From positions 1 to 39,992 of IMG/VR virus record IMGVR_UViG_2875722834_000002: DNA of 39,992 nt. One strand, 5' to 3'. The translations under genes and the position numbers were made by a program. This document shows positions 1,050 through 39,616 of this stretch, piece by piece (position 1 is the first letter of the stretch; the number at the start of each line of letters is the position of its first letter). This DNA comes from a virus (Duplodnaviria; Heunggongvirae; Uroviricota; Caudoviricetes). The notes below the pieces were generated by a model that had not been told where the DNA came from, searched no databases, and saw only the letters and a list, made by a program, of their open reading frames with translations.

Positions 1050-1076
1050 ACCCACCTTTGGATGGGTTTATTCATA
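1041..1076. terminator. Bidirectional intrinsic terminator between convergent genes
   Basis: Perfect 14-bp inverted repeat tatgaataaaccca / tgggtttattcata with an 8-nt loop, A/T-rich on both flanks. Confidence 0.7.
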
Positions 1077-1082
1077 TTCTAT

Positions 1083-3066: not shown

Positions 3067-3620
3067 TTGCGTAACTCCGATAACTCGTTAAAACGTTCCA
3101 TAAACATCCCGTAGGCATGGCCTGGTGACAGTGGAATAACTTTGAACATCTCTGTCGCCGGGATACCTTCCAGTACAGGCCAGAAAGAGCCATCATCAAG
3201 CCCGAGATCGCGGCGTTCGGTTGCCAGCATAATGAGATCGGCATATTTCACTGGCGTGCTCATAACAGGAGGTAACCCGTATTTCTCACGGATTACGGCG
3301 TCTATTTTTTCTTCCATCCGTTTATAGTCAGGAAGAAGGCGTTTCAGTGGTGCGGGGATGTCCTGGCAATATGCTTCTGTTGCATCATGCATTAACGCTT
3401 CAAAAGCAAATTCCTGCGGTACCAGCTGGCTGCAAAGCACCGCATGTTGGGCGACGCTGTAGAAGTGTGAAAGATGTCCTGCAAAGCGACAGATATTTGA
3501 AAGGGAAACCGCGACATCGTTAATAACGATGTCGTCTTTATTTATCCTGTCATAATAAAAATGCTTCCCGGAAAAAGTTTTAATAAATGACATTTTATTC
3601 TCCACGTATATGCGCTGCAC
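3057..3620 (-). CDS. HD-domain 5'-deoxynucleotidase (YfdR-like)
   Basis: HD phosphohydrolase signature (H...HD...D) in ...FAGHLSHFYSVAQHAV...ALMHDATEAYCQDIP...; order and size match CPS-53 yfdR. Confidence 0.7.
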   Translation of the reverse strand: MQRIYVENKMSFIKTFSGKHFYYDRINKDDIVINDVAVSLSNICRFAGHLSHFYSVAQHAVLCSQLVPQEFAFEALMHDATEAYCQDIPAPLKRLLPDYKRMEEKIDAVIREKYGLPPVMSTPVKYADLIMLATERRDLGLDDGSFWPVLEGIPATEMFKVIPLSPGHAYGMFMERFNELSELRKCA

Positions 3621-3720
3621 CGCGCTGAATTCTGGTAAAAGGAAGCCCTCACTATCCGGCGATTATTGAGTAAATTATGTTTCCATAAATGCCCCCGCAG
3701 GGGCATTTGCAGTAATGAAA

Positions 3721-4545
3721 TCAGGCGGTGAAAGTACCAATAAAGGTTTCTACTTTGCTGTCTTTAAATTTCTCAACAAGCAGATCACGAAATTCGTTAG
3801 CCATTTCTTCCTGCACCGCTTCCAGCTGAATAATGCGCAGAACCAGTACAGGACGATCGCCAGTGATAATGCTGAGGCGTAATTTAAACGGACGTTCTTT
3901 AAGGCCTTCAGACGGAACGCATTTAAATTCAAATGCCACTGGCATAATGTCTTTGGTCTTCGCTTCGACAGACTCCATCAGGGAGCGTTTGCCGCTGAAG
4001 TCATTATCTTCAAAATCAGCGGTCTGGTTTGCTTCAATCGTGATTTTACGGACTGCCGCAGCCGCTTTTGTTGCCTGAATGGCGTCACCATTCGCATCAA
4101 AGCCCACAAGGTAGTCGGCCCAGTCTTCAATCCATTCTGCCAGTGACTTCTGGGAGTTACGCTCGCCGTTAACAGACAACAGAGCAGAGAACGGTGCTGT
4201 CTTTTTCAGTTTGAGAGTGGCGGTGTTATCTGCGTGACCTGGTTCATCAATAGTACCCAGGTTAAGCACACTAACGGCACGCATATTATCAGCATCGATA
4301 AAGCAGCGGGTGCCTTCATCTGCAAGATCTTTAGAATAACGGGTAAAATCATCGATGCTGGCAGTGGAAAGCGCGCCACGGAAACGGAAGCGATTTAAAT
4401 TAAATTTTTCCAGATCATGAATGCGGAAATTCTCAGGCAATGCCACAGCATCGGCACCAATCTTACTGATAATTTCATTAACACCCTGAGCAGAAATAAG
4501 GGCATGGATTTGATTAATTGCGGTTGAGTCTAAGTTCTGAGACAT
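3721..4545 (-). CDS. YfdQ-like protein (DUF2303)
   Basis: 274 aa, N-terminus MSQNLDS..., positioned between the YfdP-like and YfdR-like genes as in CPS-53. Confidence 0.6.
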
Positions 4546-4610
4546 AATAAGTCCTCACTATATTAAGATATTCAGTGATGAGATAAATAATCAGTTAATT
4601 AAGAACGATA

Positions 4611-4973
4611 TTAATGACCTGCTGCGCGGAGTTTTCCGTCAGGTTCACCGGCAAGAGTCAGTAATTGTCCCTGGTCTTCCTGCAGAATAGTCAGGCGACC
4701 ACCGCGATTGACATACATCGGCGTTTCGGTGGTGTCTTCTTCGGAAATTTTCCCGCGGTTAGTCGGGCGAACATATGAGAGTTTGTGTTTGATTTTCACA
4801 CGGTTCTCATCAAATGGTTCGATTTCCAGGTTGAGTGAGACCTTCCCTTTGGTTTTCGTGTTCATCACACCGGAAGCGACTTCACTGAGAACTGCGCCGA
4901 TTTTGGTTTCAAATACGCCGCCGTCCAGCTCCCCGATAAATGCCTGCACATCAGTACTGCGTTCGCTAGCCAT
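4611..4973 (-). CDS. Hypothetical protein (YfdP-like, 120 aa)
   Basis: Track ORF 4611-5204 trimmed to the internal ATG (codon 4971-4973), which has a GAGGAG RBS; the upstream extension is Cys/Arg/His-rich and not protein-like. Confidence 0.55.
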   Translation of the reverse strand: MASERSTDVQAFIGELDGGVFETKIGAVLSEVASGVMNTKTKGKVSLNLEIEPFDENRVKIKHKLSYVRPTNRGKISEEDTTETPMYVNRGGRLTILQEDQGQLLTLAGEPDGKLRAAGH

Positions 4974-5603
4974 TTTGCTGCTCCTCATCATATCGACCCT
5001 GCAAGGTCGGTTGGTTTCTCCACAAAACAGAGAAGAACACCTGCGGTGGCAGCCGCCCGGATGGATTGGGTTATGAGCCCGTCGTCCGGTGATGCTCTTC
5101 TCTGTTTTGTAAAAAGAGCGGTACCAGCCGGAAGCAAGTGTACAAACTGGTACCGCCAAAGCAGTGGCTGTTGTGGTGGGGTTGTCACTCAGGTGTATGG
5201 TCAACCTGACAATCCGGTGTCCTCAACGGGGAAAGAGTAACCCCGCCATACTTACCGCCGCGCCATTTCGCGGATTACCACAACGCTGAGAGCACTTAGC
5301 CAGTTACGGCACCACACTTTGTCGCGGTTCCATAAATGCCCTCATCGTTGCACCCTGGTCTCTTCCCAGGCGTCAAACCGAATCGCCACGCTGGTTAGGC
5401 GTCTTATCAGCATCCTCATTGACTTGCACATTCCGGCTACCTGGTTTGTTTGCCCGAGCAAGGAGTGGATTGTCCCCTTTAACGTCCCCAGACCGCTAAC
5501 GACGCATGTGCCATACGCCGTGTTACAACCAAATTTTGTTTAATCTTGCCTGTGGCATGTTTCTTTTAGATACATTATGTATCTCAAGGGTACATTGTCA
5601 AGT

Positions 5604-5628
5604 ATAAAAAAACCTGCCGAAGCAGGTT
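5604..5628 (-). terminator. Intrinsic terminator downstream of the repressor gene
   Basis: Hairpin aacctgc-cgaa-gcaggtt followed on the minus strand by a T7 run (plus-strand aaaaaaa at 5605-5611). Confidence 0.6.
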
Positions 5629-5639
5629 ATAAATATTGA

Positions 5640-6314
5640 TTAGGCCTTTATTTGGTATCTTCTTGGTTTTCCTGAGAAAATTACTGTACCAATTATAGAG
5701 CAATTACCGTTAATCTTAATGTAAGGCTCAGGCCAGTTTGGGTTTAATGCTTTGAGATAACGCTGTGTTCCATCTTCTATCAATCGCTTGAAGGTGGTTT
5801 CGCCTGTATCGTGCATCAATGCAATAACGTCGTCACCGTGGCAGGCAGGGACTTCGGGATCAACAAAAATCATGTCTCCCGGGCGGTACTCATCAATCAT
5901 TGAATCACCAATCACCCGCAAGATATAAGTCATTTCGCCACAGGGTACAGGGCAGGGATAAGTTTCTGCTGTGCTCAAATCAACCTCAGAATAGCCAACT
6001 TCTTTCCATGCTCCGGCCTGTACCCATGATATGACAGGGACTAACGTTATTTGTTTGTTAGTAATTGAAACATCAGGTTTTTTTGTGATGTTTGTTGTCT
6101 GGTGTTCTTGATCAAGCCATCCGACAGGCAGGTCGAAACATTTTTCGATGTGCCGTGCCATGCTGTCACCGATATTTTTAGTAGCACCATCTCCCATAAA
6201 CCTGCTGGTCTGGGTTGGCTCGCGATCAATCATGGTGGCAAAGGAAGAATTCCCGCCAACACCATCTCTCAGTTTTCTGGCGTTAGACCGCCGGATGTCA
6301 TGGACTGTTTTCAT
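5640..6314 (-). CDS. CI-like prophage repressor (HTH + S24 LexA-type autopeptidase domain)
   Basis: C-terminal S24 motifs: Ala-Gly cleavage site (VQAGAW), catalytic Ser in VIGDSM, Lys in TFKRL; divergent from a Cro-like gene. Confidence 0.85.
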   Translation of the reverse strand: MKTVHDIRRSNARKLRDGVGGNSSFATMIDREPTQTSRFMGDGATKNIGDSMARHIEKCFDLPVGWLDQEHQTTNITKKPDVSITNKQITLVPVISWVQAGAWKEVGYSEVDLSTAETYPCPVPCGEMTYILRVIGDSMIDEYRPGDMIFVDPEVPACHGDDVIALMHDTGETTFKRLIEDGTQRYLKALNPNWPEPYIKINGNCSIIGTVIFSGKPRRYQIKA

Positions 6315-6330
6315 AACGAAATTAAAACCT

Positions 6331-6405
6331 TTGTACCGATAGGGTACAAGTATCTTGAAGGTTCATCTCAATCATGTAATATGTATATCGGAGGTACATA
6401 TTGTA
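6331..6405 (+). promoter_or_regulatory. Immunity-region operator/promoter segment (palindromic operator plus PR-like promoter)
   Basis: Palindrome TTGTACC-gatag-GGTACAA (6331-6349); -35 TTGAAG (6355-6360), 16-nt spacer, -10 TAATAT (6377-6382); a second palindrome TACATATTGTA overlaps the cro start and resembles TACATTATGTA at 5571-5581. Confidence 0.5.
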
Positions 6406-6605
6406 TGAAAGCGTATTGGGACTCTTTAACCAAAGAACAGCAGGGCGAGTTGGCCGGAAAAGTTGGCTCAACACCAGGCTACTTACGGCTAGTTTTCAAT
6501 GGTTATAAAAAAGCCAGTTTTGTGCTGGCTAAAAAACTTGAGCAATGCACGTCAGGTGCAATTACGAAATCTGACTTAAGACCGGATATCTATCCGAAAG
6601 ATTAA
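6405..6605 (+). CDS. Cro-like repressor (YdaS-family HTH)
   Basis: ATG at 6405 with GGAGG RBS; 66 aa; C-terminal ...ITKSDLRPDIYPK typical of YdaS/Cro-like proteins. Confidence 0.75.
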   Translation: MKAYWDSLTKEQQGELAGKVGSTPGYLRLVFNGYKKASFVLAKKLEQCTSGAITKSDLRPDIYPKD

Positions 6606-12178: not shown

Positions 12179-12931
12179 ATGAACCTTGAAGCCTTACCAA
12201 AATATTACTCCCCAAAATCTCCAAAATTGAGCGATGACGCACCGGCGACAGGCTCAGGTGGTTTAACGATTACGGATGTGATGGCTGCGCAGGGGATGGT
12301 GCAGTCGAAAGCACCGCTTGGGTTTGCCTTATTCCTGGCAAAAGTTGGTGTTCAGGATCCTCAATTTGCGATTGAAGGTCTGCTCAATTACGCGATGGCA
12401 CTGGATAACCCGACATTGAACAAATTGAGTGAAGAAACCCGGTTACAGATCATCCCTTACCTTGTGAATTTTGCCTTTGCTGATTATTCCAGGTCTGCGG
12501 CAAGTAAGGCTCGCTGTGAGCATTGTGCTGGTACTGGATTTCATAATGTATTGCGCGAAGTGGTGAAACACTCCAGAAGCGGGGAATCTGTTATCAAGGA
12601 AGAGTGGGTGAAGGAACTATGTCAGCATTGTCATGGTAAGGGAGAAGTCAGCACAGCGTGCAGAGGGTGTAAGGGTAAAGGTATTGTCCTGGATGAAAAA
12701 AGGACCCGGCTTCATGGCACGCCTGTTTATAAGATTTGTGGGCGTTGCAATGGAAACCGGTTTAGCCGTTTACCAACCACACTGGCGCGGCATCATGTCC
12801 AGAAGCTGGTACCAGACCTGACGGATTATCAGTGGTACAAAGGATATGCAGATGTCATTGATAAACTGGTTACAAAGTGCTGGCAGGAAGAAGCATATGC
12901 AGAGATACAATTGAGAAAGGTGACAAGATAA
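12179..12931 (+). CDS. Late-gene antiterminator Q
   Basis: ATG at 12179 with GGAG RBS; zinc-binding CxxC...CxxC cluster (CEHCAGTG...CQHCHGKG); sits directly upstream of a promoter/terminator pair and the lysis cassette. Confidence 0.7.
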   Translation: MNLEALPKYYSPKSPKLSDDAPATGSGGLTITDVMAAQGMVQSKAPLGFALFLAKVGVQDPQFAIEGLLNYAMALDNPTLNKLSEETRLQIIPYLVNFAFADYSRSAASKARCEHCAGTGFHNVLREVVKHSRSGESVIKEEWVKELCQHCHGKGEVSTACRGCKGKGIVLDEKRTRLHGTPVYKICGRCNGNRFSRLPTTLARHHVQKLVPDLTDYQWYKGYADVIDKLVTKCWQEEAYAEIQLRKVTR

Positions 12932-12962
12932 ATGGTTTTCGCCGAAGATGACGACATGATGC

Positions 12963-12991
12963 TTGCATTTTTCAAAAAATATGGATAAGAT
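12963..12991 (+). promoter_or_regulatory. Putative late promoter (PR'-like)
   Basis: -35 TTGCAT (12963-12968), 17-nt spacer, -10 TAAGAT (12986-12991), just downstream of Q. Confidence 0.4.
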
Positions 12992-13039
12992 TTTCCCAAC
13001 GATGGGCTTTGTATGTCTACCGTTGATAAGATTTAGGAA

Positions 13040-13062
13040 CCCGCCACTGAGCGGGTTTTTTG
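13040..13062 (+). terminator. tR'-like intrinsic terminator (expected target of Q antitermination)
   Basis: Hairpin cccgc-cactga-gcggg followed by TTTTTT, about 50-65 nt after the putative late promoter. Confidence 0.55.
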
Positions 13063-13159
13063 TACCTGTAAACTTGGTGCAGTACAGTAAACACGCTGGT
13101 GGTCGTGAATACTGACTTTTTATCTTGCTGGATTTTTAGACAAGAGTTATTGGTATGTC

Positions 13160-13387
13160 ATGTTAACCAGAAGGGAAAAAGACATGCTAAAACAGAAAGA
13201 TATGACAGAAACCGCCGCCGCAGTCCTTCATTTCTTACCTGCTGACAAGTGGGTAACGCCACGCATGATGACGAGAACTACCGGAGTAAGCGAAGCCCGG
13301 TGCCAGTTAATACTGACTCAGTTAGTTCTGGCGGGTCTGGCGAAGGATAACGGCGGGTACGGGAATAAATTCAGACGCTGCCAGTAA
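13160..13387 (+). CDS. Small winged-helix protein, PapI/FaeA-like (putative); start may be the internal ATG at 13184
   Basis: 75-aa ORF; central region ...VLHFLPADKWVTPRMMTRTTGVSEARCQLILTQLVLAGLAKD resembles FaeA/PapI regulators. Confidence 0.45.
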   Translation: MLTRREKDMLKQKDMTETAAAVLHFLPADKWVTPRMMTRTTGVSEARCQLILTQLVLAGLAKDNGGYGNKFRRCQ

Positions 13388-26329: not shown

Positions 26330-26478
26330 CGGCTGAATACCTCACTGATCGCTTCTTTGACTGCGCCAGTTACTGGCGCATTAATCCCTTCGAATTGCTG
26401 AATATGCCGATCAGTGAAATTCCCTTGCTGGTCAGTCAGGCAAACAGGATAGAGCAGGAGAAACGCACACATGGCTGA
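26060..26478 (+). CDS. Tail assembly chaperone, -1 frameshift product (GT-like)
   Basis: Slippery site at 26311-26317 in X_XXY_YYZ register; the -1 frame stays open to 26478 and runs into the tape-measure start. Confidence 0.6.
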
Positions 26479-28426
26479 ATTTGAGCTTAAGGCGTTGATC
26501 ACCGGTGTCGACAGGCTTTCTCCCGCGCTGTCGAAAATGCAAAAGAAAATCCGGGGATTTAAACGCCAGGCGGAAGAAGCGTCACAGGGTGGGCTGGCGC
26601 TTGGTGGCGGACTGGCAGCGGGTCTGACGCTTTCCCTGAAATCTTATGCCGATCAGGAAAACGCCGCCACCGGGCTGAAAGTCGCCATGATGGATGCGAA
26701 CGGCGAGGTTGGAAAGAGCTTTCAGGACATCAATAAACTGGCTATTGGCCTGGGTAACCAGCTACCCGGTACAACGGCTGATTTCCAGAACATGATGCAG
26801 ATGCTGGTGCGTCAGGGGATCCCGGCAGAAAACATTCTTGGTGGTGTGGGTAAAGCGACAGCTTATCTTGCGGTACAACTGAAAAAAACACCGGAAGCGG
26901 CTGCTGAGTTTGCTGCAAAGATGCAGGATGCTACCGGAACGGCGTCAGAAGACATGATGGGGCTGTTCGACACTATCCAGAAGGCGTTTTATCTGGGCGT
27001 TGACGATACCAACATGTTGTCCTTCTTCACTAAAACCAGTTCTGTTCTGAAGATGGTGAACAAGGACGGTCTTCAGGCTGCACAGAGCCTTGCCCCCATC
27101 AGCGTCATGATGGATCAGATGGGGATGAACGGGGAGTCGGCAGGTAATGCCCTGCGAAAAGTTATCCAGTCCGGATTAAGCGTTAAGAAAATCAGGGACG
27201 TCAATAAAGTCATGGCCCGCCAGAGACTCGGGGTACAGCTCGATTTTACTGACGGCAAAGGAAGTTTTGGCGGTCTTGATAACATGTTCAGGCAACTGGC
27301 AAAGCTGCGAAAACTGACCGACGTTAAGCGAACAGGTGTACTTAAGGCAATATTTGGTGATGATGCCGAAACCCTTCAGGTGGTCAATGCACTAATCGAT
27401 AAAGGAAAGGATGGCTACGATCAGATCCAGCAGAAGATGAATAAACAGGCCAGCCTGAATAAACGTGTTCAGGCACAGCTTGGTACGCTGTCCAACCTGT
27501 GGGAGGCAATGACGGGGACCGCAACTAACGGCCTTGCGGCTATTGGCGGCGCATTTTCTGGTGACGCCAAAAATATCACGCAATGGCTGGGGGAGTTGGG
27601 GGAAAAATTCACGAAGTTTGCGGATGAAAATCCCCGGGTTATTCGCGGCGTCGTCGGGCTTGCTGCCGGTCTTGCGATTCTGAAACTGGGATTGATGGGC
27701 GTGGGCAGTGCCATCAGTATCGTCAGCAGGATCATGTCGATGACGCCGATTGGCATGATTGCGACGGCGATTGCCTTGGCTGCGGGATTAATTATCACTA
27801 ACTGGGATGTTGTTGGACCTTATTTCAAGAAGCTCTGGGAAACCATTGGTCCTTATTTTGAGGCTGGCTGGGAACTTCTGAAGAAGGTTTTTGCCTGGTC
27901 GCCGCTGGGGATGGTAATCAATAACTGGGGACCGGTTGTTAAGTGGTTTCAGGATATGTGGGACAAGCTGAAGCCAATTATTGAGTGGTTTACCGACAGT
28001 TCCGGTGACACGGTCGATGCCATTAACTCGGCGCAGTGGGGCGCGGGTGCTTATGATGCTTATGGGACGGGAATACCGGCGCGGGGATACACACCTTATC
28101 CGGCGCAGTCAAACAACGCCTCCGGTGACACGGTCGATGCCATTAACTCGGCGCAGTGGGGCGCGGGTGCTTATGATGCTTATGGGACGGGAATACCGGC
28201 GCGGGGATACACACCTTATCCGGCGGTAGATCCGGCTCAGTCAAACAACGCCTCCGATGCTACAGGCCCGAATCCCTTCATGATTAACAAAGCTTCTGCG
28301 CCAAAAGTTGACGGTGAGATCAAGGTCTCTTTTGTGAATTCGCCTCCGGGTATGCGGGTTATGGAAACGCGATCCAGCGGTTTTGATATAAATCACGATG
28401 TTGGCTATACGCATATTGGCAGATGA
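26471..28426 (+). CDS. Tail tape measure protein
   Basis: 651 aa with a helical N-terminal half, a hydrophobic segment and position after the chaperone pair. Confidence 0.85.
   Translation: MAEFELKALITGVDRLSPALSKMQKKIRGFKRQAEEASQGGLALGGGLAAGLTLSLKSYADQENAATGLKVAMMDANGEVGKSFQDINKLAIGLGNQLPGTTADFQNMMQMLVRQGIPAENILGGVGKATAYLAVQLKKTPEAAAEFAAKMQDATGTASEDMMGLFDTIQKAFYLGVDDTNMLSFFTKTSSVLKMVNKDGLQAAQSLAPISVMMDQMGMNGESAGNALRKVIQSGLSVKKIRDVNKVMARQRLGVQLDFTDGKGSFGGLDNMFRQLAKLRKLTDVKRTGVLKAIFGDDAETLQVVNALIDKGKDGYDQIQQKMNKQASLNKRVQAQLGTLSNLWEAMTGTATNGLAAIGGAFSGDAKNITQWLGELGEKFTKFADENPRVIRGVVGLAAGLAILKLGLMGVGSAISIVSRIMSMTPIGMIATAIALAAGLIITNWDVVGPYFKKLWETIGPYFEAGWELLKKVFAWSPLGMVINNWGPVVKWFQDMWDKLKPIIEWFTDSSGDTVDAINSAQWGAGAYDAYGTGIPARGYTPYPAQSNNASGDTVDAINSAQWGAGAYDAYGTGIPARGYTPYPAVDPAQSNNASDATGPNPFMINKASAPKVDGEIKVSFVNSPPGMRVMETRSSGFDINHDVGYTHIGR
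28001..28256 (+). repeat. Perfect 120-bp tandem duplication inside the tape-measure gene
   Basis: 28001-28105 is identical to 28121-28225; copy 2 carries a 12-bp insertion (gtagatccggct) before the shared cagtcaaacaacgcctccg. Confidence 0.9.
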
Positions 28427-28478
28427 CGGAACCAGATATAATTTGTCTTTAAGTTTGTTATCAACTGAAGGGAAATCT

Positions 28479-28856
28479 ATGGGTCTGTTACATGCCATTA
28501 TAGGTAATGCCGGTGAAATTAATGCATCAGATGCACAACAGGAATTAGGGGCTGTTTTAGGTGAGGGAGAAAATGTCGAACTTGCCTATAAACTCATTCG
28601 TGACCAAATTATTCTGACTAACAGAAGGTTAATTTTTATTGATAAGCAGGGTGTCACAGGGAAAAAAGTAGAGTATCGTTCGATTCCTTATAAATCTGTG
28701 ACAAACTTTTCTATTGAAACCGCCGGGCATCTTGATCTTGATGCTGAAATGAAGATATGGATTTCTGGTATTGCAGAACCGATAAAAAAACAGTTCAGTA
28801 AAGGAGCAAACATTTATAAATTGCAGGCTCATCTGGCTCAAAAAATAGCAGGGTAA
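28479..28856 (+). CDS. Small cytoplasmic protein, possibly a bacterial PH-like fold; AT-rich inserted gene in the tail module
   Basis: ATG at 28479 with GAAGGG RBS; 125 aa; beta-rich pattern ...RRLIFIDKQGVTGKKVEYRSIPYKSVTNFSIETAG...; own terminator. Confidence 0.55.
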   Translation: MGLLHAIIGNAGEINASDAQQELGAVLGEGENVELAYKLIRDQIILTNRRLIFIDKQGVTGKKVEYRSIPYKSVTNFSIETAGHLDLDAEMKIWISGIAEPIKKQFSKGANIYKLQAHLAQKIAG

Positions 28857-28882
28857 ACCTTACATTAATTTATGTCTTTCAT

Positions 28883-28904
28883 GCCCACTTCGGTGGGCTT
28901 TTTT
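28883..28904 (+). terminator. Intrinsic terminator after the inserted small gene
   Basis: Hairpin gcccac-ttcg-gtgggc followed by TTTTTT. Confidence 0.75.
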
Positions 28905-28919
28905 ATATCCGGAGTTTAT

Positions 28920-30374
28920 ATGACGTGGAAAGACAGGCTTCAGGACGCGTCATTTCGCGGTGTGCCGTTTAAGGTTGAAGAAGAAAGTGCGGGAACAGGT
29001 CGCCGTGTGGAAACACACGAATATCCGAACCGCGACAAACCCTATACCGAAGATCTGGGAAAAGTCACTTTCCGCCCGTCCATCACGGCTTATGTGGTGG
29101 GCGATGACTGCTTTGACCAGCGCGATCGCCTGATTGACGCGCTGAATAAACCCGGTCCCGGCACGCTTGTCCACCCGACTTACGGTGAGCTGAAAGTCTG
29201 TGTTGACGGAGAGGTTCGGGTCAGCACATCGAAAAGTGAAGGGCGTATTGTCCGCTTTGACCTGAAGTTTGTCGAAGCGGGAGAACTCTCTTACCCCACA
29301 TCAGGTGCGGCGACGGCGCAGACGCTGATGTCATCCTGTTCTGCACTGGATGACTGCATCAGTGACAGCTTCAGCGGTTTCAGTATCGATGGTGTGGCGG
29401 ATTTCGTGCAGAACGACGTTATCGGTAATGCCAGCATAATGCTGGGGTATGTTTCTGATGCGATGAAAGTGGTGGATTCTGCCGTATCGGATGCCGCCAG
29501 GCTGTTGCAGGGGGATATCTCGGTACTTCTGCCGCCGCCATCGTCAGGCAAAAATTTCGTTGAGCAGGTGCAGAAAATGTGGCGTACCGGGAAACGCCTT
29601 TATGGTAACGCCAGCGACCTGGTCACCATGATCAAAACGCTTTCCGGTGTCAGCCTCGGCAGCGATCTGCAACCGCGCGGCGTCTGGAAAACGGACAGTA
29701 AAACCACCGCCACGGCGACGCAGCAGCGTAACGTGGTTGCCAGCACCCTTCGTGCGACCGCAATCAGCGAAGCGGCGTATGCCGTCACCCGATTGCCTGC
29801 GCCAACAACTTCCGCGGTGATGCAGAATGCCGCAGTGGGGCAGTCAACAACTTCCGCGGTGATGCAGAATGCCGCAGTGGGGCAGTCAACAACTTCCGCG
29901 GTGATGCAGAATGCCGCAGTGGGGCAGTCAACAACTTCCGCGGTGATGCAGAATGCCGCAGTGGGGCAGTCAACAACTTCCGCGCAGAGCACCGGCTGGC
30001 CTTCCGTCACGCATCCGGCACTGAACAATGCACCGGCGGTGAAAAACACGGTTGACCTGCCAACGTGGGAAGAACTGACTGACATTCGCGACACACTGAA
30101 TACGGCAATTGATAAGGAGTTGTCCCGTACAACCAGTGATGCGCTGTTTCTGGCGCTGCGCCGGGTGAAAGCAGATCTGAATGCGGATATCAACACGCGC
30201 CTTGAACAGTCTGCTCGGATCATTCAGCGCACGCCGGATGAGGTCTTACCCGCGCTGGTGCTGGCGGCGACCTGGTTTGATAACGCGGCGCGTGACGCGG
30301 ACATTATCCGGCGTAATGCCATTACGCATCCCGGCTTTGTGCCGGTGATCCCTCTGAAGGTGCCAGTGCAATGA
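28920..30374 (+). CDS. DNA circulation protein (Mu N-like)
   Basis: ATG at 28920 with GGAG RBS; position after the tape-measure gene; contains an internal 14-aa x4 repeat. Confidence 0.7.
   Translation: MTWKDRLQDASFRGVPFKVEEESAGTGRRVETHEYPNRDKPYTEDLGKVTFRPSITAYVVGDDCFDQRDRLIDALNKPGPGTLVHPTYGELKVCVDGEVRVSTSKSEGRIVRFDLKFVEAGELSYPTSGAATAQTLMSSCSALDDCISDSFSGFSIDGVADFVQNDVIGNASIMLGYVSDAMKVVDSAVSDAARLLQGDISVLLPPPSSGKNFVEQVQKMWRTGKRLYGNASDLVTMIKTLSGVSLGSDLQPRGVWKTDSKTTATATQQRNVVASTLRATAISEAAYAVTRLPAPTTSAVMQNAAVGQSTTSAVMQNAAVGQSTTSAVMQNAAVGQSTTSAVMQNAAVGQSTTSAQSTGWPSVTHPALNNAPAVKNTVDLPTWEELTDIRDTLNTAIDKELSRTTSDALFLALRRVKADLNADINTRLEQSARIIQRTPDEVLPALVLAATWFDNAARDADIIRRNAITHPGFVPVIPLKVPVQ
29803..29984 (+). 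repeat. Perfect 42-bp tandem repeat, 4.3 copies, in frame inside the DNA circulation gene
   Basis: Unit caacaacttccgcggtgatgcagaatgccgcagtggggcagt at 29803, 29845, 29887 and 29929, plus a 14-bp partial copy; encodes TTSAVMQNAAVGQS x4. Confidence 0.95.
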
Positions 30375-35454: not shown

Positions 35455-36012
35455 ATGCTTATTGGCTATGTTCGCGTATCAACAAATGACCAGAACACCG
35501 ATCTACAACGTAATGCGTTGAACTGTGCAGGATGTGAGCTGATTTTTGAAGATAAGATCAGCGGCACTAAGTCCGACCGACCGGGACTGAAAAAACTGCT
35601 CAGAACATTATCAGCAGGTGACACTCTGGTAGTCTGGAAACTGGACCGACTGGGGCGCAGTATGCGGCATCTTGTCGTGCTGGTGGAGGAGTTGCGCGAA
35701 CGTGGCGTTAATTTTCGCAGCCTGACGGATGCTATTGATACCAGCACACCAATGGGACGCTTTTTCTTTCATGTGATGGGTGCCCTGGCTGAAATGGAGC
35801 GAGAGCTTATTGTCGAACGTACTAGGGCGGGCTTTGCCGCAGCACGACAAGAAGGGAGGAATGGTGGGCGAAAGCCAAAGCTGACAGTAGAACAATGGGA
35901 GCAGGCTGGCAGGTTGATTGAATCGGGAATATATCAGCAGCAAGTCGCACTGATTTATGATCTGGGTATTTCAACGGTGTATAAAAAATTCCCTGTAGCA
36001 AGTAAACCATAA
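35455..36012 (+). CDS. Serine-recombinase DNA invertase (Pin/Gin/Hin/Cin family)
   Basis: ATG at 35455 with AGGAGG RBS; N-terminus MLIGYVRVSTNDQNTDLQ with the catalytic Ser; C-terminal HTH; 185 aa. Confidence 0.85.
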   Translation: MLIGYVRVSTNDQNTDLQRNALNCAGCELIFEDKISGTKSDRPGLKKLLRTLSAGDTLVVWKLDRLGRSMRHLVVLVEELRERGVNFRSLTDAIDTSTPMGRFFFHVMGALAEMERELIVERTRAGFAAARQEGRNGGRKPKLTVEQWEQAGRLIESGIYQQQVALIYDLGISTVYKKFPVASKP

Positions 36013-36038
36013 CCTTACGCCACATTGATGATCGCGGA

Positions 36039-36734
36039 TTATGCACTATTTTTAGGTCTTGTAACCCGAGGTGGGAGTTGTTTGGTTATATGTTCAAGTG
36101 ATTTTTTGCCCAAGATAGTTCTTTGGACAAAACTTTCTATAGCTTCTAGCATTTGTTCGAACTCACTTTTATTCGGGCTCCAACTGCGATGTGCGGCGGC
36201 GTTTCCTGCATCAATTACAGAAGATATAACGCATGCCTCAGTGTCGCCTATGACTCCATCTTGTTTTAATTTTTCAACTTTTTCACCAAGCGGCAAACCG
36301 GGGTGAATTTGTAACAGTTCAGCAGTTCGATCAAAAATCGTCCGTAAACCGATGGACGAAAGGATGAAATGGTCAGAAGTATATGAAGAATACATTTCAT
36401 TAAATATTTGAAAGAGCTGACGATCAACTGATTCAAGCTTGGATAACCATATCGGAGCTTGAAATGTTTCAGCGGCAGGATAGGTAGTGATCATATCTAT
36501 AGGCGTTTCTACAAATTCACCATCACGATATTCGTGGGTAGTATGCTCACTGAAGTGTTCGTTGTGGTGATAGAAGACAGTATCACAGCCATTGCATTGG
36601 AGTAGGTGATGGTAATGGTACCCATAAACTGGATATTGGGAATCCTCCCAGCTAGTGGTTAGCTTCCCATGCACAGTGCAGTTACGTAACCCACCGCATG
36701 TAGGGCAAAGAGCCTTGAGTATTTCCTTTTTCAT
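36039..36734 (-). CDS. Zinc-ribbon protein with C-terminal DUF4145-like helical domain (candidate Abi/defence gene)
   Basis: N-terminal CPTCGG...C...CNGC zinc ribbon; C-terminal ...GEKVEKLKQDGVIGDTEACVISSVIDAGNAAAHRSW...FEQMLEAIESFVQRTI resembles DUF4145; AT-rich; own sigma70-like promoter. Confidence 0.6.
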   Translation of the reverse strand: MKKEILKALCPTCGGLRNCTVHGKLTTSWEDSQYPVYGYHYHHLLQCNGCDTVFYHHNEHFSEHTTHEYRDGEFVETPIDMITTYPAAETFQAPIWLSKLESVDRQLFQIFNEMYSSYTSDHFILSSIGLRTIFDRTAELLQIHPGLPLGEKVEKLKQDGVIGDTEACVISSVIDAGNAAAHRSWSPNKSEFEQMLEAIESFVQRTILGKKSLEHITKQLPPRVTRPKNSA

Positions 36735-37082
36735 AAAGTCTCTGATTCTATATGTAGGTTAAGACCACTATTAGCTATACGGACCTAATAATCAATCGTG
36801 TGCAGATACAAAAAAGCCCGTATAGCGGGATTTCATGTCACTAAGGGCCGCGGCTACTTTGCGTATCTTTTTTGTCTTCTCACCGTCTGGCCGGTATTTT
36901 GCTGAGACTGCTTATTTCCAGTTTTTACTAGTGCTGTACTGGTACTGCCCAATCATGATTGGTGGGGGACGGAGTTGAAACCGCAGCCACGTCGTATGCA
37001 AGAACGCGCTGCGGTTGGCTGGTGAACTTTCGATAGTGCGAGTATTGAATGATTTCCAGCCGTTACAGATTTTACGTGTTTA

Positions 37083-37331
37083 TTAGTGAACAAACCACTC
37101 GTCAGCAGATTCCCAGGTATCTTTCAGAGTCTCCTGAACAAAAGTTTTTGCAGAATCCTTATCTGCGGTGCGTGTAACAGAAAGGCCATCATTGCTGGTG
37201 GCTTTTACTAACACCTCAACATCGTCATAACGCTTACTGATGCGTCGGGTTAATTCTTCCTTTAACGCATCCACAGCACCGGTTGGCATTTTAGTCATTT
37301 TTTCTTTGGCTATGCAGATTTCAATACGCAT
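37083..37331 (-). CDS. dinI: DinI-family protein
   Basis: 82 aa, [11 protein letters not shown]...[16 protein letters not shown] matches the DinI family; two LexA boxes upstream. Confidence 0.8.
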
Positions 37332-37346
37332 AAAAGTCCCTCCATA

Positions 37347-37390
37347 CTGTGTTTGTATACAGTATTATTTTTAACTGTATGGATAAACAG
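37347..37390. promoter_or_regulatory. Two LexA (SOS) boxes in the dinI promoter region
   Basis: CTGT-N8-ACAG twice: ctgtgtttgtatacag (37347-37362) and ctgtatggataaacag (37375-37390). Confidence 0.65.
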
Positions 37391-37392
37391 TG

Positions 37393-38490
37393 TCAAGAGG
37401 TCTTATTTCTGCTCCTTTGGAGCTCTTCAAAACGATTATGTAAAGATTTCGGATACAGTTCGGTATATACCTGCCATAGCACGTTTAATGAACGATGCCC
37501 TGTAACCTGGGCGACTTCCTCAATACTAAAACCAGCCTCAAATAAGCGACTTGCCCCTTCTCTACGCAAATCATGGTATCGCAGATCCTTAATACCTAAT
37601 TTGCTTCTTACTCTCTGAAATCCCGCAGTAACAGAAGTGCTGTTATATGGAAAAATGAATTCCGATTTTTGGGGCTGTCGTTGGACGATATCCCAGGCTT
37701 CCCCAAGCAAGGCTACTTTCATGTGGTTGCCTTCCTTTTTGCGTGGATCTTTCCTGTCTCTTACGAGTATAGATTTTTGTTCCTGGTCGAGATCTTCCCA
37801 TCGTAACCGGCATACTTCTCCGATTCGCATACAGGACCATACAGAAAATTTGAGGATATCAACGAACGGAATTTTTGAGCATTTATGAGTAGATCGTTGT
37901 TGAAGGCCTGCAATGAGCATGTCCAGTTCATCAGATGCTGGTCTACGATTACGACGGTTTGATTTACCAATCAAACCAAGTTTAAGTAGATATGGGCGAG
38001 CGCTTATCGCCGGGTTTGATGTGTAATTAATTCCGTATACAGGTTTGGCCGCATCCAGAACACTGCCAAGATAACTAACATCGTGGCTGACTGTTGCAGG
38101 ACCTGCACCAGCGTTGTTTCTTAGCCTGCAATGTTCAATTACGTCATTTTCTGTCAGTTCAGATAGTTTGATCGCGGAGATGTCACTATCCATAAGCAGT
38201 TCCAGCACATATCTTTTAGTACGGCCTGCTTTACCTCCGGCATTTGGGTCATTTAAATATTTGTGTAGTAAGTCACGGACTGTAAGTCCGTCAACTGCAT
38301 TTGATGATGGAATGCCATATAGATCTAATTCCATCACTTTCTGTGTGCCCCATGTTTTGGCATGAGCATGTTTAGGGAATGTTTTGCTTTCCCTGTAAGT
38401 GATAACACCTTTTTCTTTGATAATCACATTACAGCGATAGCGTGGTGTGCCATCGGATTTTAGTCGTTTCTCTATGTTATAGTACGCCAT
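37393..38490 (-). CDS. int: Tyrosine integrase (dusA-associated type)
   Basis: 365 aa; C-terminal catalytic region with HDLRR, GHRS and a Tyr in ...WQVYTELY; divergent from dusA. Confidence 0.85.
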   Translation of the reverse strand: MAYYNIEKRLKSDGTPRYRCNVIIKEKGVITYRESKTFPKHAHAKTWGTQKVMELDLYGIPSSNAVDGLTVRDLLHKYLNDPNAGGKAGRTKRYVLELLMDSDISAIKLSELTENDVIEHCRLRNNAGAGPATVSHDVSYLGSVLDAAKPVYGINYTSNPAISARPYLLKLGLIGKSNRRNRRPASDELDMLIAGLQQRSTHKCSKIPFVDILKFSVWSCMRIGEVCRLRWEDLDQEQKSILVRDRKDPRKKEGNHMKVALLGEAWDIVQRQPQKSEFIFPYNSTSVTAGFQRVRSKLGIKDLRYHDLRREGASRLFEAGFSIEEVAQVTGHRSLNVLWQVYTELYPKSLHNRFEELQRSRNKTS

Positions 38491-38578
38491 TACACGACCT
38501 CGTTATTTCGGGTTCCCATAAAACGTGGGAACCTGTGCGGGAACCTAACGCGAGAAAAATAGCCTGAAATGTTCAAAA

Positions 38579-39616
38579 ATGCACGATAATCATGAAACAA
38601 AAAAAATTAATCAAACCAGCGTGATGCCTGAAAAAACTGGTGTTTACTGGAATTCTCGGTTTAGCATTGCTCCTATGCTCGACTGGACGGACAGACATTG
38701 CCGCTATTTCTTGCGTCTGCTTTCCCGCAATACGTTGCTGTATACCGAAATGGTGACCACAGGGGCGATTATTCACGGTAAAGGTGATTATCTGGCGTAC
38801 AGTGAAGAAGAACATCCGGTAGCGTTGCAACTGGGCGGTAGCGATCCGGCGGCGCTGGCGCAGTGTGCAAAGCTGGCAGAAGCGCGCGGATATGATGAGA
38901 TCAACCTGAATGTCGGCTGCCCGTCTGACCGGGTGCAGAACGGCATGTTTGGTGCGTGTCTGATGGGTAATGCGCAGCTGGTTGCCGACTGCGTGAAAGC
39001 GATGCGCGATGTGGTGTCGATTCCGGTGACGGTGAAAACGCGTATTGGCATCGACGACCAGGACAGCTATGAATTTCTCTGCGATTTCATCAATACCGTT
39101 TCCGGCAATGGCGAGTGTGAGATGTTCATCATCCACGCACGTAAAGCCTGGCTTTCGGGGTTAAGCCCGAAAGAAAACCGTGAAATCCCGCCGCTCGATT
39201 ATCCGCGTGTGTATCAACTGAAGCGTGACTTTCCGCATCTGACAATGTCGATTAACGGTGGTATCAAGTCGCTGGAAGAGGCCAAAGCACACCTGCAACA
39301 TATGGATGGCGTGATGGTCGGGCGCGAGGCGTATCAGAATCCGGGTATTCTGGCGGCGGTAGACCGGGAGATCTTTGGTTCCTCGGATACCGATGCCGAT
39401 CCGGTGGCGGTAGTGCGCGCCATGTATCCGTACATTGAGCGTGAACTCAGCCAGGGGACGTATCTCGGCCATATTACCCGGCATATGTTGGGCTTGTTCC
39501 AGGGTATTCCTGGCGCGCGGCAGTGGCGGCGTTATTTAAGTGAAAATGCCCATAAAGCGGGTGCAGACATTAATGTGCTGGAACACGCGCTCAAACTGGT
39601 GGCGGATAAGCGTTAA
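38579..39616 (+). CDS. dusA: tRNA-dihydrouridine synthase A; the true start may be the internal ATG at 38624, and the 5' end may be prophage-derived
   Basis: Full-length Dus family protein matching enterobacterial DusA over essentially its whole length. Confidence 0.9.

What the first reader, a model, noticed from the sequence alone, without database searches (positions are those of the whole stretch)
28427..28919. AT-rich, self-terminated small gene inserted between the tape-measure and DNA-circulation genes
Seen in sequence: a 125-aa ORF (28479-28856) with a good RBS, sharply lower GC than its flanks, and a strong terminator (28883-28904), inside an otherwise tightly packed Mu-type tail operon. 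Inference: Mu-type modules normally have no gene here, so this is a horizontally acquired insert. The beta-rich pattern suggests a PH-like fold, which is a tentative call. Such inserts in late operons often encode superinfection-exclusion or host-fitness factors.
Basis: partly seen in the sequence, partly recalled or inferred. Interest (0 to 1): 0.55.

Follow-up and report, generated by a model that had tools for sequence, protein, structure and literature searches.

The report
Bacterial PH-domain cargo gene in prophage tail operon
A small AT-rich gene sitting between two tail genes of an SfV-like E. coli prophage is a picked-up copy of a very conserved bacterial protein (a ring-forming "PH domain") whose function is unknown; it is optional cargo, not a tail part, and it occupies a slot where related prophages carry other small cargo genes.

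Summary
A 125-aa ORF (28479-28856, GC 0.38 against 0.52 for the window) lies between the tape-measure and DNA-circularization genes and is followed by a hairpin plus T-run.

It is a full-length member of Pfam PF08000 (bPH_1/PHb1, E=3e-48). It matches the solved pentameric-ring structures 3DCX and 3HSA (E~1e-39; model TM 0.81-0.86). Every proposed ligand-site residue is kept.

The prophage is SfV/SfII/SfI-like. Those phages, and about two thirds of related E. coli prophages, have nothing at this junction. Only 28 of 5,426 E. coli genomes carry the gene, and IS1 splits it in 4 of them.

- The terminator is resident. It is also present at empty junctions and is annotated in SfII.
- The junction is a recurrent cargo slot, with at least five other AT-rich single genes, all carrying envelope-targeting signals.

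Edwardsiella phages carry an 89% identical copy at the same junction (dN/dS ~0.02). In unrelated temperate phages the family sits in lysogeny modules.

Best reading: a moron-type accessory gene that brings an unaltered cellular PHb1 into the host, probably protective for the lysogen. Its phenotype is untested. New member of a known kind; moderate interest.

The parts
26471..28426 (+). Tail tape-measure gene (left flank). Its last ~45 nt differ between junction variants and travel with the cassette.
   Evidence: PF10145 at E=1e-26 and PHROG tape-measure families. The 3' end variants are compared. A fossil of this 3' end lies downstream of the TMP stop in Edwardsiella phage EPP-1, 49/57 nt identical.
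28416..28442 (+). Promoter-like element: TTGGCA (28416-28421), 15-nt spacer, TATAAT (28437-28442). It straddles the TMP stop codon (28424-28426). Function not shown.
   Evidence: 11 of 12 consensus matches but a short 15-nt spacer, so the standard 16-18 nt scan misses it. Same spacing in Edwardsiella copies, but the -10 there is TATAAC. The two + strand cargo genes checked (176-aa and 225-aa) have promoter-like boxes at the same distance from their ATG; the empty junction has none.
28427..28863 (+). Inserted AT-rich cassette (approximate limits): 52-nt leader, the PHb1 gene and a few nt after its stop. The right limit is uncertain within 28857-28882.
   Evidence: Absent from empty junctions whose flanks are ~97% identical. 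GC 0.36-0.39. Alignment with the empty site.
28467..28473 (+). Shine-Dalgarno-like GAAGGGA, 6 nt upstream of the ATG
   Evidence: Read directly from the sequence.
28479..28856 (+). PHb1 (Pfam PF08000 bPH_1 / DUF1696) gene. 125 aa, soluble, no TM segment or signal peptide.
   Evidence: PF08000 at 163 bits against a cut-off of 27.7, covering 3-122 of 125. PHROG 7115. PDB 3DCX/3HSA at E~1e-39. AF2 pLDDT 81, TM 0.81/0.86 to 3dcx_A. Maximum 19-residue Kyte-Doolittle hydropathy 0.58. dN/dS 0.02-0.03 against Edwardsiella copies.
28883..28904 (+). Intrinsic-terminator hairpin (stem 28883-28888 / 28893-28898, UUCG loop) plus T6. It is a resident element of the tail operon shared with empty junctions, and it would end a moron transcript.
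   Evidence: Homologous hairpins with compensatory stem changes occur at the same position in the empty (E14), 176-aa, 225-aa and Edwardsiella junctions. SfII carries a terminator annotated at this junction.
28911..28914 (+). RBS (GGAG) of the DNA-circularization gene, conserved in all + strand junction types
   Evidence: alignment (CGGAGTTTATATG).
28920..30374 (+). DNA-circularization / baseplate-hub gene (Mu gp43 / N type), right flank
   Evidence: PF07157 at E=3e-34 and PHROG 184. The RefSeq start in the 98% identical prophage corresponds to 28920.

Best explanation
The feature is a moron-type accessory cassette in the late (tail) operon of an SfV/SfII-like temperate phage of E. coli.

Shown:
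- A ~435-bp AT-rich segment holding one gene lies between the tape-measure stop codon and a pre-existing intrinsic terminator that precedes the DNA-circularization gene.
- The gene encodes an orthodox, full-length PHb1 protein (PF08000). This family has crystal structures that are dome-shaped pentameric rings, with five conserved acidic pockets formed between neighbouring protomers.
- All the pocket and core residues are retained. The only substitutions specific to the phage clade are conservative.
- The gene is under strong purifying selection inside phages.
- It is optional for the phage: most relatives lack it.
- No DNA-level homologue of it was detected in the other 5,398 E. coli genomes.

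Inferred:
- The gene is transcribed in the lysogen as a ~455-nt monocistronic mRNA, from the promoter-like TTGGCA-N15-TATAAT to the resident terminator.
- It is also transcribed by Q-antiterminated read-through late in lytic growth.
- The prophage thereby gives the host the native PHb1 activity: a cytoplasmic, probably membrane-peripheral ring that binds a conserved cationic ligand or partner.
- The pay-off is probably protection of the lysogen at the inner face of the cell envelope. This would be either exclusion of superinfecting phages or tolerance of envelope-damaging agents.

The stated confidence of 0.6 is a compromise over three unequal claims. 'Optional PHb1 cargo gene, not a tail component' is about 0.9. 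'Acts in the lysogen as a protective factor' is about 0.5. 'Specifically excludes phages' is about 0.3.
For: Family and fold:
- PF08000 E=3e-48.
- 3DCX/3HSA E~1e-39.
- AF2/Foldseek TM 0.81-0.86.
- Residues E31, R41, D42, T47, R50, D55, Q57, K63, P70-Y71, E80, T81, D86, D88 and E90 are all present, with the same numbering as PHb1(sl). These are the residues named as buried core and proposed binding site in Xu et al. 2010, PMC2817789.
- No non-conservative phage-specific substitutions.

Optional cargo:
- Empty junction in SfV, SfII, SfI and most E. coli relatives.
- 28 of 5,426 genomes carry the gene, 4 of them with an IS1 insertion.
- GC 0.38 against 0.52.

Maintained by selection in phages:
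- An 88-90% identical protein sits at the same junction in Edwardsiella prophages and in the plaque-isolated phage EPP-1. Nucleotide identity is 79% and dN/dS is 0.02-0.03.
- A fossil of the E. coli-type TMP 3' end accompanies it there.

Lysogen-expressed context elsewhere:
- Lactococcus phage ul36: integrase - PHb1 - ORF355 - ImmA-type protease - CI, all co-oriented.
- Vibrio 186-like phage: cI - PHb1 - SIR2 - integrase.
- Among 110 immediate neighbours in 29 other phage lineages, the commonest families are HTH_3 (10), Peptidase_M78 (7) and Phage_integrase (6), with one Ltp exclusion lipoprotein.
- Xu et al. 2010 already noted PHb1 in lysogeny modules.

Slot logic:
- The five other cargo genes seen at this junction are AT-rich and carry a TM anchor, lipobox or signal peptide, as exclusion and conversion proteins typically do.
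- Promoter-like boxes precede the PH gene and the two + strand cargo genes checked, and not the empty site.
- Precedent: HK97 gp15, a moron in the tail operon next to the tape-measure gene, is a prophage-expressed exclusion protein (PMC3594210).

Against: - No expression data exist for the lysogen.
- The promoter-like element has a suboptimal 15-nt spacer, and its -10 is degenerate (TATAAC) in Edwardsiella. The gene may therefore be made mainly or only late, with the tail genes.
- The protein has no TM segment, signal peptide or lipobox, unlike known exclusion proteins and unlike every other cargo gene seen at this junction.
- No match to any PADLOC defence model or NCBIfam model.
- The biochemical function of PF08000 is unknown. 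Chromosomal homologues are stand-alone genes with no conserved neighbour, so there is no pathway to anchor the inference.
- The cassette is rare (0.5% of E. coli genomes) and IS1 inactivates it in 4 of 28 carriers. Any benefit is therefore conditional.
- Some IMG/VR 'viral' loci place the gene near contig ends and could include flanking host DNA.
Confidence: 0.6

Rival explanations
1. A late-acting lytic-cycle helper, for example a counter-defence or host-takeover factor. It would be expressed only by read-through with the tail genes and would act during virion production, not in the lysogen.
For: The gene is co-oriented with, and embedded in, the late operon, with short spacers of 52 and 63 nt. 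The promoter-like element is non-canonical and degenerate in Edwardsiella. A Q-type antiterminator upstream in the 98% identical prophage implies read-through of the hairpin late in infection (the Q mechanism is described for SfIV in PMC3851460). Small oligomeric ring proteins with interfacial pockets are a known architecture for phage anti-defence 'sponges' (my own knowledge, not tested here).
Against: In ul36 and the Vibrio 186-like phage, and in a third or more of 29 further phage lineages, the family lies in the repressor/integrase module and is co-oriented with cI, not in late operons. The conserved pockets are acidic with one lysine (PMC2817789), which suits anionic nucleotide signals poorly. 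The phage copy is indistinguishable from cellular PHb1 at conserved positions. Most sister phages are viable without it.
Confidence: 0.17
2. A structural or assembly component of this phage's tail, such as an extra baseplate or tape-measure-associated protein or chaperone.
For: Its position is between the tape-measure and baseplate-hub genes, on the same strand. It has been kept at exactly this junction in two host genera.
Against: It is absent from SfV, SfII, SfI and about 97% of E. coli prophages with near-identical flanking tail genes. It is 60-66% identical to stand-alone chromosomal proteins of Photobacterium, Clostridium and Paenibacillus, and 47-55% identical to those of cyanobacteria and Planctomycetota. 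Its composition is foreign. The junction alternatively holds unrelated envelope proteins, some on the opposite strand.
Confidence: 0.03
3. A passenger with no current function for phage or host: neutral hitch-hiking DNA in a recombination-permissive intergenic site.
For: Rare (0.5% of genomes) and inactivated by IS1 in 4 of 28 carriers. No phenotype is known.
Against: dN/dS is 0.02-0.03 with saturated synonymous divergence between the E. coli and Edwardsiella phage copies. Every conserved family residue is intact. The ORF is intact in 24 of 28 carriers from many sources. The same family has been recruited independently by unrelated phages.
Confidence: 0.05
4. A host-fitness (lysogenic conversion) factor unrelated to phages. 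It would give E. coli a PHb1-dependent envelope or general stress function that the species otherwise lacks.
For: PHb1 paralogue YozO is sigma-W/stress induced and YvbH is membrane-associated (PMC2817789). No DNA-level homologue was detected elsewhere in E. coli. The phage copy is unmodified relative to cellular ones. Carriers come from gut, food, water and soil isolates.
Against: This is a sub-case of the best explanation rather than a true alternative, and no stress phenotype is known for any family member. The co-location with cI, SIR2 and Ltp in other phages points at least as strongly to phage-phage conflict.
Confidence: 0.2

Closest known systems
PHb1 proteins of Pfam PF08000 (DUF1696), solved as Shewanella loihica Shew_0819 (PDB 3DCX) and S. 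amazonensis (PDB 3HSA); Xu et al. 2010, PMC2817789
   Same: Same length and single-domain architecture. E~1e-39, with ~50% identity in the Foldseek structural alignment. Model TM 0.81-0.86. Identical numbering and identity of the buried E31/T47/R50 core, the PYxx(I/V) motif and the interfacial acidic pocket D42/D55/Q57/K63/E80/T81/D86/D88/E90.
   Different: Encoded in a phage tail operon of a host species in which no other copy was detected. Near-neutral net charge (pI ~8), against acidic Vibrionaceae homologues. The pentamer was not tested here. The function of the whole family is unknown.
HK97 gp15 moron (Juhala et al. 2000; Cumby et al. 2012; reviewed in PMC3594210)
   Same: A single small gene of deviant GC, inserted in the tail operon next to the tape-measure gene of a lambdoid-regulated temperate coliphage. 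It is absent from close relatives, derived from a cellular gene family, and flanked by promoter and terminator signals.
   Different: gp15 is an inner-membrane protein that has diverged from its cellular relative YebO and has a demonstrated exclusion phenotype. The PHb1 gene product is soluble, has not diverged from cellular homologues, uses a resident terminator, and has no tested phenotype. There is no sequence relationship.
PHb1 genes in lysogeny modules of temperate phages: Lactococcus ul36 ORF124, Microbacterium Min1 gp77, Vibrio phage 10N.286.45.B12_PE001 gene 4
   Same: Same Pfam family (33-41% identity), same size, carried by temperate phages as non-core genes.
   Different: Those copies sit beside integrase and repressor and match their hosts' GC. 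The window gene sits in the late tail operon and is compositionally foreign.
Other cargo genes at the same TMP | DNA-circularization junction of SfV-like prophages: 176-aa TM-anchored, 225-aa lipoprotein, 128/148-aa OB-fold PF12869, 162-aa secreted
   Same: Same insertion slot, AT-rich (GC 0.34-0.42), single genes. The two + strand ones checked (176-aa and 225-aa) have a promoter-like box ~32-36 nt upstream of the ATG and a hairpin terminator before the DNA-circularization RBS.
   Different: Unrelated in sequence. All are envelope-targeted, whereas PHb1 is cytoplasmic. PHb1 is the rarest of the four types counted (28 genomes, against ~54 to ~174 for the others).

Membership tests
Pfam PF08000 bPH_1 / PHb1 (DUF1696) | Full-length match to the family HMM above the gathering score | tested here: met
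   163.2 bits against a cut-off of 27.7, E=3.1e-48, residues 3-122 on profile positions 2-121 of 122.
Pfam PF08000 bPH_1 / PHb1 (DUF1696) | PH-like fold: two beta-sheets capped by a C-terminal helix | tested here: met
   AF2 model with pLDDT 81, seven core strands plus helix 112-124. Foldseek gives 3dcx_A at E=2.8e-13, TM 0.81/0.86, followed by eukaryotic PH domains.
Pfam PF08000 bPH_1 / PHb1 (DUF1696) | Buried Glu31-Thr47-Arg50 network and PYxxI linker motif | tested here: met
   E31, T47, R50, P70 and Y71 are invariant in alignments A1 and A4. The motif reads PYKSV, a conservative I74V change (features defined in PMC2817789).
Pfam PF08000 bPH_1 / PHb1 (DUF1696) | Conserved interfacial acidic pocket (D42, D55, Q57, K63, E80, T81, D86, D88, E90) | tested here: met
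   All nine residues are present at the same positions.
Pfam PF08000 bPH_1 / PHb1 (DUF1696) | Homopentameric dome-shaped ring | not testable with these tools
   Only monomer prediction is available. Inferred from the close sequence match (E~1e-39) to two crystal pentamers.
Phage moron (Juhala/Hendrix definition, as stated in PMC3594210) | Extra DNA between two genes that are adjacent in close relatives | tested here: met
   Empty junctions in SfV/SfII/SfI and most E. coli relatives, with ~97% identical flanks.
Phage moron (Juhala/Hendrix definition, as stated in PMC3594210) | GC content different from the surrounding genes | tested here: met
   0.378 against 0.516 (window) and 0.50-0.60 (flanks).
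Phage moron (Juhala/Hendrix definition, as stated in PMC3594210) | Own promoter | tested here: inconclusive
   TTGGCA-N15-TATAAT at 28416-28442 matches 11 of 12 positions, but the spacer is 15 nt. The 16-18 nt scan does not report it; a relaxed scan does. The -10 is TATAAC in Edwardsiella.
Phage moron (Juhala/Hendrix definition, as stated in PMC3594210) | Own terminator | tested here: inconclusive
   A good intrinsic terminator follows the gene, but it is homologous to the one at empty junctions. It is resident, not brought by the cassette.
Phage moron (Juhala/Hendrix definition, as stated in PMC3594210) | Expressed from the repressed prophage | not testable with these tools
   No transcript data are available. 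No paper was found for this gene.
Superinfection-exclusion proteins (HK97 gp15, P22 SieA, Sie2009, Ltp, Cor/Llp) | Membrane or envelope localisation through a TM segment, signal peptide or lipobox | tested here: not met
   Maximum 19-residue Kyte-Doolittle hydropathy is 0.58, and no signal or lipobox is present. The neighbouring-slot cargo genes do have them, scoring 1.7-2.2.
Superinfection-exclusion proteins (HK97 gp15, P22 SieA, Sie2009, Ltp, Cor/Llp) | Exclusion phenotype against superinfecting phages | not testable with these tools
   Requires plating and DNA-entry assays.
Known anti-phage defence systems (PADLOC-DB v2) | Match to a defence-protein model | tested here: not met
   0 families at E<=1.
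Mu-type tail structural module | Conserved presence and synteny in related tail modules | tested here: not met
   Present in 28 of ~1,100 E. coli genomes that carry the flanking tail genes. Absent from SfV, SfII and SfI.

The most novel reading that the evidence does not exclude
PHb1 (PF08000) is an ultra-conserved, structurally solved but functionally orphan ring protein. It could be a general, cytoplasmically acting protective factor that temperate phages of several phyla have repeatedly captured to shield their lysogens, for example by a new, non-membrane-spanning kind of superinfection exclusion or envelope guard. The tape-measure | DNA-circularization junction of SfV-like phages would then be an undescribed hotspot of such single-gene protective cargo. 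The E. coli prophage copy would be the first genetically tractable handle on the family's function.
Probability: 0.3. Interest if true: 0.65.

Novelty: new member of a known kind. Interest (0 to 1): 0.4.

Why it matters
PF08000 has had crystal structures since 2008-2010. It is 47-66% identical from E. coli prophages to Firmicutes, Bacteroidota, cyanobacteria and Planctomycetota. No function has been assigned to it.

No other copy of the family was detected in E. coli, so the prophage-borne copy offers a clean gain-of-function test. Natural controls exist: empty-junction prophages and IS1-disrupted alleles.

The junction itself holds at least six alternative AT-rich cargo genes upstream of a conserved terminator. 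That makes it a compact natural library of candidate lysogen-protective genes in a very common family of E. coli/Shigella prophages, present in about 20% of complete genomes.

If no phenotype is found, this remains an ordinary moron of unknown role.

Tried and rejected
- Megablast of the cassette against 50,697 phage records found nothing. tblastn was needed to find EPP-1, ul36, Min1 and the others.
- PADLOC and NCBIfam scans of the protein returned nothing. PADLOC on the three other cargo proteins scanned (176-aa, 148-aa OB-fold, 225-aa) and on ul36 ORF355 also returned nothing.
- An Rfam scan of 28200-29100 gave only sub-threshold chance hits (isrB at 24 bits against a cut-off of 35). I rejected an sRNA reading.
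- The standard sigma-70 scan found no + strand promoter. The relaxed scan gives only a 15-nt-spacer candidate.
- Chromosomal contexts of six cellular homologues showed no conserved partner gene, so guilt-by-association gives no pathway.
- I looked for phage-specific substitutions or a charge shift that would indicate neofunctionalisation. Only conservative changes appear, and the pI lies within the family range.
- Literature: no paper names this protein. No paper was found describing cargo at the TMP/DNA-circulation junction. No functional study of PHb1 was found beyond Xu et al. 2010. One search (sie2009/ul36) was swamped by herpesvirus UL36 hits, and the Mahony 2008 paper is not held.
It was rerun with alignment A4.
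- The SfII row in the hairpin alignment used wrong coordinates and should be ignored. The E14 empty site serves instead.
- The longer 152-aa ORF (from 28398) and the 500-aa DNA-circularization ORF (from 28872) were rejected as start-codon artefacts.
Full report

- The window holds a 378-nt ORF at 28479-28856 (+), 125 aa.
- An SD-like GAAGGGA lies 6 nt upstream of the ATG.
- The ORF sits 52 nt after the stop of a 651-aa tape-measure gene (PF10145) and 63 nt before a DNA-circularization gene (PF07157). Both belong to a sheath/tube/chaperone/TMP/gp43/gpP Mu-type tail module.
- GC in 200-nt windows drops to 0.36-0.395 over 28400-28900, against 0.50-0.60 on each side. This is the only low-GC island within the 14-35 kb structural module.
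- The hairpin GCCCAC-UUCG-GUGGGC (28883-28898) plus U6 is detected by the terminator scan. The stretch folds at -12.7 kcal/mol, z = -2.2.
- The mechanically longer ORFs (152 aa from 28398; DNA-circularization from 28872) are start-codon artefacts. All homologues begin MGL(L/F), and RefSeq starts the downstream gene at the position equal to 28920.

**2. What the gene encodes.** The product is a full-length member of Pfam PF08000 (bPH_1, formerly DUF1696).

- The Pfam score is 163 bits against a cut-off of 27.7, E=3e-48. It also matches PHROG 7115, 'unknown function'.
- It matches two solved structures, 3DCX and 3HSA, at E~1e-39.
- An AlphaFold2 model (pLDDT 81) superposes on 3dcx_A with TM 0.81/0.86. 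The next Foldseek hits are PHb2 (3B77) and then eukaryotic PH domains.
- Xu et al. 2010 (PMC2817789) showed these PHb1 proteins form dome-shaped C5 pentamers. The conserved surface residues cluster in five mostly acidic pockets built from two adjacent protomers.
- The window protein has the same residue numbering and keeps E31, R41, D42, T47, R50, D55, Q57, K63, P70, Y71, E80, T81, D86, D88 and E90.
- The only positions where the phage clade differs from at least 75% of cellular homologues are conservative: L7I, I74V, L91M, N107S and V123I.
- The protein is soluble. It has no TM segment, signal peptide or lipobox.
- There is no hit in PADLOC or NCBIfam.

**3. Where the window comes from, and how variable the junction is.**

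- The window is an E. coli prophage, 98% identical over 25 kb to one in strain 730V1. It has lambdoid early and Q genes, an HK97-type head and a Mu-type tail.
- Its tail genes are about 97% identical to the Shigella serotype-converting phages SfV, SfII and SfI.
- Those three phages have nothing between the two genes. The SfII record annotates a 'putative rho-independent terminator' there.
- Across 5,426 complete E. coli genomes the flanks occur in about 1,100.
- The PH cassette occurs in only 28 genomes. In 24 it is intact at 99.2-100% identity, and in 4 it is split by IS1.
- An evenly spaced sample of 60 records contained 49 with both flanks. Of these, 31 were empty, 10 carried a 'hypothetical' gene, 6 an 'OB-fold' gene and 2 the PH gene.
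- Direct counts for the other cargo types:
  - a 176-aa protein with an N-terminal TM anchor, ~174 genomes, also in phage SKA5;
  - a 225-aa lipoprotein with an LLGGC lipobox, ~54 genomes;
  - a TM-anchored OB-fold protein (PF12869) on the opposite strand, 54-79 genomes;
  - a 162-aa signal-peptide protein in an ST131 prophage with a divergent tape-measure gene.
- All of these are AT-rich, with GC 0.34-0.42.
- The junction is therefore a recurrent single-gene cargo slot, and PHb1 is the rarest of the four types counted and the only cytoplasmic occupant seen.

**4. Anatomy of the insertion.** Aligning junctions shows that the block of hairpin, T-run and CGGAGTTTATATG is present at empty sites too.

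- The empty site reads TCCCAC-TCCG-GTGGGA, where the window reads GCCCAC-TTCG-GTGGGC. That is one compensatory base-pair change.
- The 176-aa and 225-aa variants have different stems that still pair.
- The terminator is thus a resident element of the operon, and the PH gene was inserted between the TMP stop and it. 'Self-terminated' is right in effect but wrong in origin.
- On the left, TTGGCA (28416-28421), a 15-nt spacer and TATAAT (28437-28442) straddle the TMP stop codon. This matches 11 of 12 consensus positions, but the spacer is short, so the standard scan misses it.
- The 176-aa and 225-aa cargo genes have extended -10 promoter-like boxes at the same distance (32-36 nt) from their ATG. 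The empty junction has none.
- If the promoter is used, the unit would give a ~455-nt monocistronic mRNA. In lytic growth, Q-antiterminated late transcription would read through the gene in any case. The antiterminator gene is annotated in the sister prophage, and the mechanism is as described for SfIV in PMC3851460.

**5. Evolutionary evidence that the gene is functional cargo.**

- Edwardsiella tarda, anguillarum and hoshinae prophages, and the plaque-isolated phage EPP-1, carry an 88-91% identical protein at exactly the same junction.
- Nucleotide identity is only 79%, and dN/dS is 0.02-0.03. This indicates long-term purifying selection within phages.
- In Edwardsiella, a 57-nt fossil of the E. 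coli-type TMP 3' end plus the promoter-like box (49/57 identical) lies 52-110 nt downstream of the phage's own TMP stop. This is a footprint of cassette transfer by recombination.
- The next relatives are stand-alone chromosomal genes: Edaphovirga at 72%, then Photobacterium, Clostridium, Paenibacillus and others at 60-66%.
- The family remains 47-55% identical in Bacteroidota, Actinobacteria, cyanobacteria and Planctomycetota.
- No conserved neighbour is seen around the chromosomal copies.
- No DNA-level homologue was detected in the remaining E. coli genomes, and the protein search listed E. coli only for the clusters of this same gene.

**6. Context in other phages.**

- In Lactococcus phage ul36 the PHb1 gene lies between the integrase and the ImmA-protease/CI pair, co-oriented with them.
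- In a Vibrio 186-like phage it lies between cI and a 612-aa SIR2 protein that hits PADLOC SIR2 models, followed by the integrase.
- In Min1 it lies at the genome end.
- A scan of IMG/VR gave 80 loci in about 30 clusters.
- I took the two nearest ORFs on each side in 29 lineages that are not SfV-like, 110 ORFs in all. The commonest Pfam families among them were HTH_3 (10), Peptidase_M78 (7) and Phage_integrase (6), with CI repressor (2) and one Ltp exclusion lipoprotein.
- Only in the SfV-like loci is the gene compositionally foreign, 0.38 against 0.55.
- Xu et al. had already remarked on PHb1 in the lysogeny modules of ul36 and Min1.
- Caveat: some IMG/VR loci place the gene near contig ends and could include host DNA.

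**7. How it most likely works.**

- Shown: the gene is an optional, selected, unaltered PHb1 inserted upstream of a resident terminator in a late operon.
- Inferred: it is expressed in the lysogen, and certainly late in lytic growth. It assembles into the pentameric ring and supplies PHb1's native activity to a species in which no other copy was detected.
- The family's few functional clues point to the cytoplasmic face of the envelope. [quoted passage not shown] The acidic pockets suggest a cationic ligand (all as reported in PMC2817789).
- The company it keeps also suggests a role that protects the lysogen. At this junction its alternatives are envelope-targeted cargo, and in other phages its neighbours are cI, integrase, SIR2 and Ltp.
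- The positional precedent is HK97 gp15, a tail-operon moron next to the tape-measure gene that excludes superinfecting phages (PMC3594210).
- I put about 0.9 on 'accessory PHb1 cargo, not a tail part'. I put about 0.5 on 'acts as a protective factor in the lysogen', and about 0.3 on phage exclusion specifically.
- The rivals are set out separately: a late-acting helper or counter-defence factor (~0.17), a pure host-stress factor (~0.2, overlapping the best explanation), a neutral passenger (~0.05) and a structural component (~0.03).

**8. Comparison with what is known, and novelty.**

- Membership of PF08000/PHb1 is met on every testable criterion. Only the pentamer was not testable.
- It fits the moron concept on presence/absence, composition and position. 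It is inconclusive on 'own promoter' and 'own terminator', and untested on prophage expression.
- It is not a member of any known exclusion or defence family. It lacks a membrane anchor and has no PADLOC hit.
- RefSeq already labels it 'PH domain-containing protein', and phage-borne PHb1 was noted in 2010.
- What appears undescribed in the searchable literature is this junction as a multi-cargo slot upstream of a conserved terminator, and the cross-genus conservation of the PHb1 cassette there.

**9. Verdict.** New member of a known kind. Interest is moderate (0.4). The gene is an ordinary moron in form, but it gives a clean experimental handle on an ultra-conserved protein family of unknown function.

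Noticed in passing
window 28001-28225: A perfect 120-bp tandem duplication (1.9 copies, 100% identical) near the 3' end of the tape-measure gene. It gives a 651-aa protein where SfII-type relatives have 611 aa. Because tape-measure length sets tail length, a slightly longer tail is predicted (lengths).
   Followed up: partly
window 29803-29984: A perfect 42-bp repeat, 4.3 copies (14 aa, TSAVMQNAAVGQST), inside the DNA-circularization gene. Gene length differs between the window (484 aa), the 98% identical 730V1 prophage (470 aa) and other relatives (442 aa), consistent with varying copy number, so it behaves as a VNTR.
   Followed up: partly
window 28427-28919 and loci L002-L006, L015, L105: The tape-measure | DNA-circularization junction of SfV-like E. 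coli prophages is a cargo slot with at least six alternative AT-rich single genes. Five of them are envelope-targeted (TM anchor, lipobox, signal peptide, OB-fold on the opposite strand). About two thirds of junctions are empty.
   Followed up: partly
window 28883-28919; L002 ~1430-1470; L013 2429-2467: An intrinsic-terminator hairpin sits immediately upstream of the DNA-circularization RBS in the middle of the late tail operon, also in phages without cargo. It is annotated in SfII. Its stems differ by compensatory changes between variants. Its role is unexplained; it could set the ratio of tail-tube to baseplate gene expression, or insulate the downstream genes in the lysogen.
   Followed up: partly
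L014 (Edwardsiella phage EPP-1) 11691-11749, against window 28383-28441: A non-coding fossil of the E. coli-type tape-measure 3' end plus the promoter-like box (49/57 nt identical) lies downstream of EPP-1's own tape-measure stop. This is a footprint of cassette transfer between phage lineages.
   Followed up: yes
L007 (E. coli EC_J_9) 1636-2789: IS1 is inserted in the PH gene after about codon 30. The same disrupted allele is in four complete genomes. These are natural knock-outs usable as controls.
   Followed up: partly
L018 (Vibrio phage 10N.286.45.B12_PE001) 3240-7402: The gene order is cI repressor, PHb1, a 612-aa SIR2-domain protein (PADLOC Aga_SIR2 / PDC-S65 models, E down to 3e-64), then integrase. 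I did not test whether PHb1 and SIR2 form a functional pair.
   Followed up: no
NZ_AP023208.1 64427-64919 (hit H12): One intact copy of the PH cassette lies on a 70-kb record labelled as a plasmid of E. coli TUM18781. The 225-aa cargo variant likewise occurs on a 100-kb plasmid (L006). These could be phage-plasmids or assembly artefacts.
   Followed up: no
window 301-1200, 3501-6600 (patches), 12801-13200, 36001-38700: Further low-GC islands (0.34-0.41) lie in the early region, downstream of the Q-antiterminator region, and beyond the tail-fibre genes. These are the usual places for other morons.
   Followed up: no
loci L107-L158 (genome contigs): PF08000 proteins from Firmicutes, Proteobacteria, Bacteroidota, Actinobacteria, cyanobacteria and Planctomycetota are 47-64% identical to the window protein. 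That is unusually high conservation for a 125-aa protein with no known function.
   Followed up: partly
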